Shown: in pieces, positions 4,029 to 4,370 of the stretch
How positions within the stretch are numbered: position 1 is the first letter of the stretch
How the letters are laid out: each line of letters begins with the position of its first letter
Source: a virus
Lineage: Duplodnaviria; Heunggongvirae; Uroviricota; Caudoviricetes
DNA length: 4,507 bases
Direction: 5' to 3' (one strand)
IMG/VR virus record: IMGVR_UViG_2695420698_000007
The notes under the pieces: generated by a model
Seen by the model: only the letters and a program-made list of their open reading frames with translations
The model's database searches: none
Told to the model about the DNA's origin: nothing
Made by a program: the position numbers and the translations under genes

Positions 4029-4370
4029 GTGTCTGATTATTTGCAGCCAATCCCTCCCAAAAAAGATACACACTGGAGCATGATTTTCATTCCGGTAGCA
4101 ATTTATATACTACTTAATCTTGTATACATTATTGCTCACCCATTATTTCCTGAAAAATATCTAAAAACATCAACATCTATATTTCTATTCATTTCCTTCA
4201 TATTAAGTGCAATAGTAGCATATTTTGTTTTCCATAAGCATAAATCTGCCACTCTATCCATATGCAGCTTAGTGTTCTTAGTGTTAATTGTAGGTGCTAA
4301 CGTAGGGTTTATCAGTTACAGCGACCTAACACAAAAAGCGACGCAAAAATTAGATAGTTTGTCTAAATAA
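4029..4370 (+). CDS. Hypothetical small integral membrane protein, 113 aa, with three predicted transmembrane helices and a charged C-terminal tail
   Basis: Three hydrophobic stretches of about 20 residues: IFIPVAIYILLNLVYIIAHPLF, IFLFISFILSAIVAYFVF and LSICSLVFLVLIVGANVGFISY. They are separated by short basic loops (KK, HKHK), followed by the polar tail SDLTQKATQKLDSLSK. The start is uncertain: GTG at 4029 per the ORF track, or the in-frame ATG 17 codons downstream (MIFIP...). Stop TAA at 4368-4370. Confidence 0.5.
   Translation: MSDYLQPIPPKKDTHWSMIFIPVAIYILLNLVYIIAHPLFPEKYLKTSTSIFLFISFILSAIVAYFVFHKHKSATLSICSLVFLVLIVGANVGFISYSDLTQKATQKLDSLSK

What the first reader, a model, noticed from the sequence alone, without database searches (positions are those of the whole stretch)
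4029..4370. Small three-helix membrane protein with holin-like or effector-like architecture
At about 95-113 aa with three transmembrane helices and a charged C-terminal tail, this protein matches the size and topology class of class I holins and of small membrane-depolarising abortive-infection effectors. It lies in the early/nin region, far from where lysis genes normally sit. The start codon is ambiguous (GTG at 4029 or the downstream ATG).
Basis: inference. Interest (0 to 1): 0.55.

Follow-up and report, generated by a model that had tools for sequence, protein, structure and literature searches.

The report
Frameshifted remnant of prophage membrane gene
The ORF is the broken 3' four-fifths of a 142-residue, three-helix inner-membrane protein gene that travels with a small partner gene as cargo on lambdoid prophages and tiny plasmids; it is not the phage's holin, its function is untested (my best guess is a Rex-like phage-exclusion pair), and this Shigella sonnei-type copy is inactivated by a 1-bp deletion.

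Summary
The 113-aa ORF (4029-4370) exists and has three strong hydrophobic helices. It is not a complete gene, however. All 46 complete E. coli genomes with this cassette, and relatives in Klebsiella and Enterobacter, encode a 142-aa protein. That protein starts at ATG 3943, which has a GGAGGG Shine-Dalgarno and an ATGA overlap with the upstream 125-aa gene. The window lacks one G at 3967, so this frame stops after 15 codons. The allele recurs on at least 100 contigs whose named records are Shigella sonnei, in a prophage remnant; this window is bounded by IS2 and IS1. The lost N-terminus is the most conserved part of the family. The 125+142-aa pair is a conserved, AT-rich module under purifying selection. 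In mosaic lambdoid prophages it lies antisense between the replication and nin genes. On ~3.5-kb ColE2-type plasmids it lies directly after rep. The complete prophages examined have their own holin/endolysin genes after Q. Predicted topology (N-in/C-out) is opposite to class I holins, and no holin family matches. No defence, Pfam, PDB or fold match exists, and no paper mentions the pair. Best guess (about 0.4): a Rex-like exclusion pair made of a cytosolic partner and a membrane effector. This copy is a pseudogene. Interest is moderate to low.

The parts
3569..3946 (+). geneA: intact 125-aa soluble partner protein (phrog_18061, function unknown). Its stop TGA 3944-3946 overlaps the geneB start.
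   Evidence: ORF. PHROG match E 9e-85, full length. No hydrophobic segment: the maximum KD window is 0.43. It sits directly upstream of geneB in every locus examined except those where it is secondarily disrupted. dN/dS is 0.08.
3932..3937 (+). Shine-Dalgarno GGAGGG serving the true geneB start
   Evidence: Duplex with the anti-SD is -9.8 kcal/mol, 5 nt before ATG 3943.
3943..3990 (+). 5' stub of geneB: the ancestral ATG, 15 codons, then a premature TAA. The 1-bp deletion is at 3967 (G where intact copies have GG).
   Evidence: Alignment to E. coli A7, translation of the intact gene, and the ORF list. All 46 complete E. coli carriers have the extra base.
4029..4370 (+). The finding: a 113-aa ORF that is the out-of-frame 3' remnant (residues 30-142) of the 142-aa geneB protein (phrog_16940). 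TM1 is at 4077-4139, TM2 at 4170-4235, TM3 at 4248-4319, and the C-terminal tail at 4320-4367.
   Evidence: The same 113-aa product is recorded on at least 100 contigs, and the named records are Shigella sonnei.
4372..4404 (.). Conserved hairpin just after the geneB stop (core GCCATGC-N7-GCATGGC). It may be a transcript end or stabiliser, or a terminator for antisense phage transcription.
   Evidence: -16.6 kcal/mol, z -2.8 in the window. The homologous Klebsiella hairpin is -27.5 kcal/mol, z -7.0. It is conserved in position across cassettes. Neither strand has a canonical U-tract on the + side, so its function is inferred only.
4479..4507 (.). IS1 terminal repeat. This is context only: it marks the right boundary of the prophage remnant.
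   Evidence: S. sonnei contigs identical to window 4301-4507 continue into IS1 insA/insB. E. coli similarity stops at 4478.
1..33 (.). IS2 right end. This is context only: it marks the left boundary of the remnant.
   Evidence: Window 1-40 matches 21,017 places annotated 'IS3-like element IS2 family transposase'. E. coli prophage similarity starts at 33-36.

Best explanation
Shown (confidence about 0.95). The ORF is the frameshifted remnant of geneB. GeneB encodes a 142-aa inner-membrane protein with a ~45-residue soluble N-terminal domain followed by three transmembrane helices. It is the second gene of a translationally coupled two-gene cargo module (geneA, 125 aa, soluble; ATGA overlap). 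The module moves horizontally. In lambdoid prophages of E. coli, Klebsiella and Enterobacter it lies antisense between the replication and nin genes. On small ColE2-type plasmids it lies immediately after rep. In this window's lineage (Shigella sonnei type, IS2/IS1-bounded prophage remnant) a 1-bp deletion removes the most conserved 29 N-terminal residues from the frame, so the copy is most likely a pseudogene.

Inferred (confidence about 0.4). The intact module is a Rex-like phage-exclusion or abortive-infection pair expressed from the resident element. GeneA would be the cytosolic sensor/activator. It would act on the conserved cytoplasmic N-terminal domain of geneB. GeneB would oligomerise through its polar-studded helices (invariant N59, N120, P51, and Tyr at the helix ends) to leak ions and arrest the infected cell. 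B would be harmless until triggered.
For: Frameshift and true start.
Fixed allele in S. sonnei.
The N-terminal residues 1-36 are nearly invariant across 17 clusters and under purifying selection (pN 0.08 against pS 0.6).
Pair conserved in the loci examined: in nine Klebsiella/Enterobacter-type prophage loci the genes sit at identical coordinates with a 4-nt overlap. In three distant contigs at 43-49% geneA identity / 33-35% geneB identity and in a third subfamily with ~34% geneB / 35% geneA identity, the genes still overlap.
Cargo signature: 33-37% GC against 50-59% in the flanks, and 33-35% against 50% for rep on the plasmid. DNA similarity between E. coli and Klebsiella copies starts at the geneA start and ends ~90 nt after the geneB stop. 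The same slots hold other cargo in relatives, including a DarT homolog.
The antisense orientation relative to the lytic transcript fits expression in the lysogen (inference).
Predicted N-in topology puts the conserved N-domain in the cytoplasm with geneA.
Either gene can be lost naturally with the other intact. This fits an effector that needs activation, as in Rex, where RexA triggers the membrane effector RexB (PMC12894663).
Against: There is no experimental datum. No homology to any known defence protein was found: PADLOC none; Pfam and NCBIfam nothing above cut-off; PDB sequences none; fold searches only generic. GeneA is small (125 aa), its AF2 model is poor (pLDDT 58), and no DNA- or ligand-binding domain is detectable. 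No promoter was identified upstream of geneA. Topology rests on the positive-inside rule only. The family is tiny, with 7 representatives among 1.84 billion, so comparative power is low. The Brenes & Laub 2025 prophage-defence screen could not be read, so prior characterisation cannot be fully excluded.
Confidence: 0.4

Rival explanations
1. Non-lethal lysogenic-conversion or superinfection-exclusion function. GeneB would be an inner-membrane protein that blocks DNA entry or alters an envelope process without killing the cell, with geneA as an accessory or chaperone.
For: It is a prophage-borne, antisense, AT-rich cargo gene encoding an inner-membrane protein. GeneB is tolerated intact when geneA is disrupted. 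Prophage Sie-type membrane proteins are known, for example P22 SieA (PMC10883804, listed).
Against: This does not explain the strictly conserved, translationally coupled cytosolic partner, or why the most conserved part of B is a putatively cytoplasmic mini-domain. It is also carried by 3.5-kb plasmids. No similarity to any Sie/Imm family was found.
Confidence: 0.2
2. Toxin-antitoxin / addiction module. GeneB would be a constitutively toxic small membrane protein, and geneA its upstream, overlapping antitoxin that stabilises the plasmid or prophage.
For: The geometry is classical: a small upstream gene overlapping the downstream gene by ATGA. The pair sits next to rep on tiny plasmids whose only other genes are rep and rop. 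The same plasmid slot holds a DarT homolog in a relative. GeneB is inactivated with geneA intact in S. sonnei and in the P0051 E. coli contigs.
Against: E. coli CV839-06 has IS1 inside geneA with geneB intact. Es_ST80 has a frameshifted geneA with an intact geneB that keeps its own strong SD. That should be lethal if A were an essential antitoxin, with two caveats: possible polarity, and a possible homopolymer sequencing error. No DNA-binding or antitoxin domain is detectable in geneA.
Confidence: 0.12
3. Replication-linked accessory function. The pair would assist or regulate the neighbouring initiator (Rep, or O/P), for example by membrane anchoring of replication.
For: The pair is adjacent to replication initiator genes in both element types, and overlaps the 3' end of rep in two plasmid subfamilies.
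Against: In prophages it is on the opposite strand from O/P. Close relatives of both backbones replicate without it and carry unrelated cargo in the slot. Its base composition is foreign to both backbones.
Confidence: 0.07
4. Holin or lysis-timing protein.
For: Three TM helices and a small size.
Against: The complete relatives carry their own holin/endolysin lysis genes after Q. This gene is on the opposite strand from late genes and has no muralytic neighbour. It is present on plasmids. Predicted N-in/C-out is opposite to class I holins (PMC9636201). There is no Met-Lys-Met-type dual start at the true N-terminus, which reads MINITTK. There is no holin Pfam hit, and the best BFVD holin hits have E > 0.6.
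Confidence: 0.02
5. The 113-aa ORF of this window is still expressed from GTG 4029 and works as an N-terminally truncated protein (a neofunctionalised or deregulated effector).
For: The ORF is open and was called as a gene on many S. sonnei contigs. All three TM helices are retained.
Against: It loses 29 residues of the most conserved segment, including the invariant K7 and D8. GTG 4029 and ATG 4080 have weak or mis-spaced SD sequences. The upstream stub stops 38 nt before it. The element is otherwise an IS-bounded relic.
Confidence: 0.1

Closest known systems
Phage lambda RexA/RexB exclusion system and Rex-like pairs (P. putida RexABpp, mycobacteriophage Sbash, Gordonia phage CarolAnn)
   Same: It is a two-gene prophage cargo unit with a cytosolic protein followed by a small polytopic inner-membrane protein. 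It is positioned so that it could be expressed independently of the lytic programme (inference; expression was not tested). B (142 aa) is about the size of RexB (~144 aa, from my own knowledge). Either component is dispensable for viability. In Rex systems the membrane protein is the effector and is triggered by the soluble partner (PMC12894663).
   Different: There is no sequence or profile similarity to RexA/RexB: Pfam scans list neither. GeneA is 125 aa, whereas RexA is ~279 aa and DNA-binding. B has 3 predicted TM helices plus an N-terminal soluble domain, whereas RexB has 4 (my own knowledge). The pair is not in the immunity region next to cI but between the replication and nin genes. It is also plasmid-borne. 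Function is untested.
Class I holins (lambda S105)
   Same: A small protein with three transmembrane helices, encoded by a lambdoid phage.
   Different: Predicted orientation is N-in/C-out, against N-out/C-in for class I holins (PMC9636201). It has a 45-residue soluble N-terminal domain and no dual-start motif. It is not in a lysis cassette, and a separate lysis cassette with holin and lysozyme is present in the complete relatives examined. No holin family matches.
PHROG families phrog_16940 (geneB) and phrog_18061 (geneA)
   Same: Full-length, very strong matches (E 2e-96 and 9e-85). These are the families the two proteins belong to.
   Different: Both families are annotated 'unknown function', so membership gives no functional information.
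Type II-like toxin-antitoxin pairs and small membrane toxins
   Same: Two small overlapping genes on plasmids and prophages, the second encoding a hydrophobic protein.
   Different: Natural alleles with geneA disrupted and geneB intact exist. There is no recognisable antitoxin domain. B is much larger than typical type I/V membrane toxins (my own knowledge).

Membership tests
Class I holin | Three TM helices with N-out / C-in topology | tested here: not met
   Three TM helices are present. K+R counts favour N-in/C-out in all five subfamilies: loop 2 has 2-3 K/R and 0-1 acidic residues, loop 1 has 0-2 K/R. The definition is from PMC9636201. This is a prediction only; no experimental topology exists.
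Class I holin | Encoded in the late lysis cassette next to an endolysin | tested here: not met
   The gene is antisense between the replication and nin genes. Separate lysis cassettes with lysozyme (and, in nine of ten, an identified holin) lie after Q in the ten complete relatives examined. It also occurs on plasmids with no lysin.
Class I holin | Sequence membership in a holin family (Pfam Phage_holin_*) | tested here: not met
   No holin family appears at E <= 1 for the 113-aa ORF, or at E <= 0.1 for five full-length members.
Class I holin | Dual-start (holin/antiholin) motif and a highly basic cytoplasmic C-tail | tested here: not met
   The true N-terminus is MINITTKDG. The tail has 3 K and 2 D. 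The feature definition is from my own knowledge of lambda S.
Lambda RexAB | Homology to RexA / RexB | tested here: not met
   No RexA/RexB family appears among the Pfam hits for either protein or their distant relatives. No PADLOC hit.
Lambda RexAB | The soluble partner activates the membrane effector, causing depolarisation and phage exclusion | not testable with these tools
   This needs phage challenge and membrane-potential assays. The definition is from PMC12894663.
Known anti-phage defence systems (PADLOC-DB 2.0) | Profile match to any component | tested here: not met
   0 families for both proteins at E <= 1.
Type II toxin-antitoxin | The toxin is not tolerated without its antitoxin | tested here: inconclusive
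   GeneA is disrupted with geneB intact in 2 of 46 complete E. coli carriers, which argues against this. IS1 polarity and a possible homopolymer sequencing error are caveats.
PHROG phrog_16940 / phrog_18061 | Full-length profile match | tested here: met
   E 2.3e-96 over 1-142 of 142, and E 9.3e-85 over 1-125 of 125.

The most novel reading that the evidence does not exclude
The intact 125-aa + 142-aa pair is a previously undescribed, minimal (~0.8 kb) anti-phage abortive-infection or exclusion system. It would be unrelated in sequence to any catalogued defence family. It is shared between lambdoid prophages and ~3.5-kb ColE2-type plasmids of Enterobacteriaceae. A tiny cytosolic sensor would gate a three-helix membrane effector through the effector's conserved cytoplasmic N-terminal mini-domain.
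Probability: 0.3. Interest if true: 0.6.

Novelty: new member of a known kind. Interest (0 to 1): 0.3.

Why it matters
For this window the practical result is a correction. The 'small membrane protein with ambiguous start' is a pseudogene fragment, so expressing the 113-aa ORF as written would test an artefact. The gene to test is the intact 142-aa form together with its 125-aa partner, for example from E. coli 536 or A7. More broadly, the pair is a compact, uncharacterised cargo module. It is under strong purifying selection and has colonised two unrelated kinds of mobile element. Modules with this profile have repeatedly turned out to be conflict systems. If it is a defence pair, it would be one of the smallest sensor/membrane-effector systems known, and easy to dissect.

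Tried and rejected
- Holin: rejected on context, predicted topology and lack of family match.
- Known defence systems: PADLOC gave no hits.
- Pfam and NCBIfam: only sub-threshold hydrophobic matches that differ from member to member, so they are spurious.
- PDB sequence profiles: nothing.
- Deposited phages (INPHARED) and plasmids (PLSDB): no tblastn match for either protein or the plasmid variants. The plasmid variant is also absent from complete E. coli assemblies.
- Rfam: no RNA family in the window.
- Promoter scan: no convincing sigma-70 site upstream of geneA, and the upstream DNA is not conserved between the E. coli and Klebsiella cassettes.
- Bacteriocin/immunity pair: considered and rejected. 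GeneA has no double-glycine leader, no exporter is nearby, and it is lysine/glutamate-rich rather than microcin-like (sequence inspection; my own knowledge of microcins).
- 'Toxin decays first' argument: I expected only geneB to be disrupted in nature, but found geneA-disrupted alleles as well, so I dropped it.
- Literature: accession numbers, PHROG ids, strain 536 locus tags and topic searches found nothing on this pair. Brenes & Laub 2025 is not held.

Full report
WHAT IS IN THE WINDOW

The 4,507-bp window is a relic of a DLP12-like lambdoid prophage. From left to right it holds:
- the right end of IS2, at 1-33;
- an ompC-like porin gene, 160-1242 on the + strand;
- on the - strand: antiterminator Q/quuD (Pfam Phage_antitermQ, E 4e-53), ylcG, rusA, ybcO, ninE and a YbcN/NinB-like gene at 2849-3304;
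- on the + strand: two overlapping ORFs in a markedly AT-rich block, 33-37% GC against 50-59% for 1951-3450;
- an IS1 end at 4479-4507.

The finding is the second of the two AT-rich ORFs.

CHECKING THE OBSERVATION

The ORF GTG 4029..4370 (113 aa) exists. It carries three strong hydrophobic segments, with Kyte-Doolittle peaks of 2.4-2.5. AlphaFold2 models these as three long helices. It is not a complete gene, though.

- E. coli A7 has a 99.7%-identical copy annotated as 142 aa. Its ATG corresponds to window 3943 and overlaps the upstream gene's stop as ATGA.
- A direct alignment shows one difference in 500 nt. The window has a single G at 3967 where A7 has GG.
- From ATG 3943 the window therefore reads 15 codons (MINITTKDALKSVVK) and stops at 3988-3990. 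The 113-aa ORF is what remains open in the original frame downstream.
- ATG 3943 has a GGAGGG Shine-Dalgarno 5 nt upstream (-9.8 kcal/mol). GTG 4029 has -3.3. ATG 4080 has -5.6 at zero spacing.

IS THE DELETION REAL?

- All 46 complete E. coli genomes that carry this DNA map the 81-nt query to 82 nt, so they have the extra G.
- The exact 113-aa product is on record on at least 100 contigs (150 index blocks), and the named records are Shigella sonnei.
- Six such contigs match window 3901-4100 and 4301-4507 exactly and run on into IS1 insA/insB, then into chromosomal genes such as mutS and hyp.

So the deletion is a real allele shared across many S. sonnei assemblies, sitting in an IS-bounded prophage remnant. 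It is not a sequencing error in one read set. The window's first ~160 nt differ from those contigs and begin with IS2, so the window comes from a related but not identical isolate.

THE GENE IS HALF OF A TWO-GENE MODULE

GeneA (3569-3946, 125 aa) is soluble, with a maximum hydropathy window of 0.43. It precedes geneB in every locus examined, apart from two E. coli strains where it is secondarily disrupted (below).

- In nine Klebsiella/Enterobacter-type prophage loci, the 125-aa and 142-aa genes sit at identical relative coordinates with a 4-nt overlap. They are always on the strand opposite to the flanking replication genes (O/P, DnaB, DnaC-like) and nin genes (DUF1367/NinB, NinE). The prophages themselves are mosaic, with different repressors, replication modules, Q types and lysis cassettes.
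- DNA similarity between the E. coli and Klebsiella versions begins at the geneA start and fades ~90 nt after the geneB stop. The mobile unit is therefore the two ORFs plus a conserved hairpin just after the stop: -16.6 kcal/mol here and -27.5 in Klebsiella.
- Both genes are under strong purifying selection, with dN/dS 0.08-0.09 at near-saturated synonymous divergence. This includes the first 36 codons of geneB.
- Those 36 residues are the most conserved part of the family. The window's frameshift removes 29 of them.

HOW WIDE IS THE FAMILY?

It is very narrow.

- The word-indexed search found 17 clusters, all Enterobacteriaceae where named.
- An exhaustive profile search of 1.84 billion representatives found only 7.
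- A profile search with geneA found relatives at 34-49% identity. Three of their contigs carry the full 125+142-aa pair with a 4-nt overlap; the fourth, a 618-nt contig, holds a 127-aa geneA-like gene and the start of the next one. One contig (L019) has a rep fragment upstream and a MobC/NikA-like gene downstream.
- A third subfamily (geneA-like 128 aa, geneB-like 137 aa; ~34-35% identity) lies on a ~3.48-kb circular plasmid. The contigs have 127-nt terminal overlaps. Its only other genes are a ColE2-type rep (Replicase + PriCT_1) and rop. The pair overlaps the 3' end of rep, and it is again AT-rich: 33-35% GC against 50% for rep.
- Relatives of that plasmid backbone carry other cargo in the same slot, including a DarT homolog (PADLOC E 2e-8).
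- Related prophages carry emrE/ybcK, or DUF4145 plus a pol III theta-like gene, between P and ybcN.

So the pair is cargo occupying variable slots in two kinds of element.

WHAT IT IS NOT

- Holin. Nine of the ten complete relatives examined have a Pfam- or RefSeq-identified holin, and all ten have a lysozyme/endolysin gene, in a lysis cassette after Q. GeneB is antisense, is coupled to a soluble partner, and is also plasmid-borne. Positive-inside counts favour N-in/C-out in all five subfamilies, opposite to the N-out/C-in of class I holins (PMC9636201). There is no dual start at the true N-terminus. No holin family matches.
- Catalogued defence protein. PADLOC gives nothing.
- Any Pfam or NCBIfam family. 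Nothing scores above threshold.
- Anything with a solved or predicted structural relative that I could detect.

Both proteins are full-length members of PHROG families of unknown function. No paper in the library mentions them.

WHAT IT MOST LIKELY DOES

The anatomy is as follows:
- a tightly coupled soluble + polytopic membrane pair;
- foreign base composition and horizontal spread between prophages and small plasmids;
- orientation opposite to the lytic transcript;
- co-divergence of A and B across subfamilies;
- invariant polar residues inside the helices (N59, N120, P51);
- a conserved, putatively cytoplasmic N-terminal mini-domain on B.

This fits a conflict module in which B is a membrane effector controlled by A.

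I looked for natural experiments.
- GeneB is frameshifted with geneA intact in S. sonnei, and independently in E. coli contigs carrying P0051, which has a +1 in an A-run.
- GeneA is interrupted by IS1 in E. coli CV839-06 with geneB intact.
- GeneA is frameshifted in Es_ST80 with geneB intact.

Since B is tolerated without A, a simple 'A is the antitoxin of a constitutive toxin B' model is disfavoured. The caveats are polarity of the IS1 insertion and a possible homopolymer sequencing error. The data fit better with an effector that needs activation. That is the Rex logic, in which soluble RexA triggers the membrane effector RexB (PMC12894663).

I therefore commit to a Rex-like exclusion/abortive-infection pair at about 0.4. 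The rivals are:
- non-lethal exclusion or another lysogenic-conversion membrane role, about 0.2;
- toxin-antitoxin addiction, about 0.12;
- a replication-linked accessory role, about 0.07;
- holin, about 0.02.
All of these are inference; none was tested.

VERDICT

The three-helix ORF is real, but it is a frameshifted fragment with a resolved ancestral start. The copy in this window is most likely a pseudogene.

The intact module is an uncharacterised but unremarkable-looking cargo pair, best filed as a probable new member of the 'soluble partner + membrane effector' class. It is worth one cloning experiment using the intact allele, not the ORF as written. Interest is 0.3.

Noticed in passing
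window 1-33: The right end of IS2 forms the left edge of the window. E. coli prophage similarity starts only at 33-36, so the lysis cassette that follows the porin in intact relatives has been lost here.
   Followed up: yes
window 4450-4507: An IS1 end at 4479-4507 truncates replication gene P. By offset from the A7 annotation, only about its last 29 nt (4450-4478, minus strand) remain. S. sonnei contigs continue into insA/insB and then chromosomal genes.
   Followed up: partly
window 4442-4424 and 3359-3324 (minus strand): Terminator-like hairpins on the phage's rightward (minus) strand lie just after the P stop and just before ybcN, bracketing the antisense cassette. They may be tR2-like sites that insulate the cassette from antisense transcription unless N antitermination is active.
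   Followed up: no
L032 (E. coli CV839-06) 1670-2527; L033 (Es_ST80) 2141-2386: Natural alleles with geneA disrupted (an IS1 insertion; a 1-bp deletion in a T5 run) while geneB stays intact at 142 aa. The converse also occurs: P0051 has a +1 in the A-run of geneB with geneA intact (L025, L026).
   Followed up: yes
L022/L023/L024 (whole contigs, ~3.48 kb): A small circular ColE2-type plasmid (rep with Replicase+PriCT_1, then a geneA-like 128-aa gene, a geneB-like 137-aa gene, and rop). It is recorded in 46 index blocks of draft assemblies and metagenomes but is absent from PLSDB and from complete E. coli assemblies. Its host species was not determined.
   Followed up: partly
P0054 (571-aa metagenomic protein): It contains four tandem ~33-residue repeats (NVRDLVKKFENEGLTVEDYLHKACLKQ...) that match geneB residues 12-46 at E 3e-5. 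This suggests the conserved N-terminal mini-domain is a helix-turn-helix-like hairpin motif that also occurs as a repeat elsewhere.
   Followed up: no
window 160-1242: An intact 360-aa OmpC/NmpC-type porin gene carried by the prophage between Q and the (here missing) lysis genes. It is retained in the S. sonnei relic along with all the nin genes. GeneB is the only one of the nine genes that is broken.
   Followed up: no
window 1431-1829: The mechanical ORF for Q is 132 aa from TTG. RefSeq and the gene callers use a 127-aa form (384 nt) starting at the internal ATG ([11 protein letters not shown]...).
   Followed up: no
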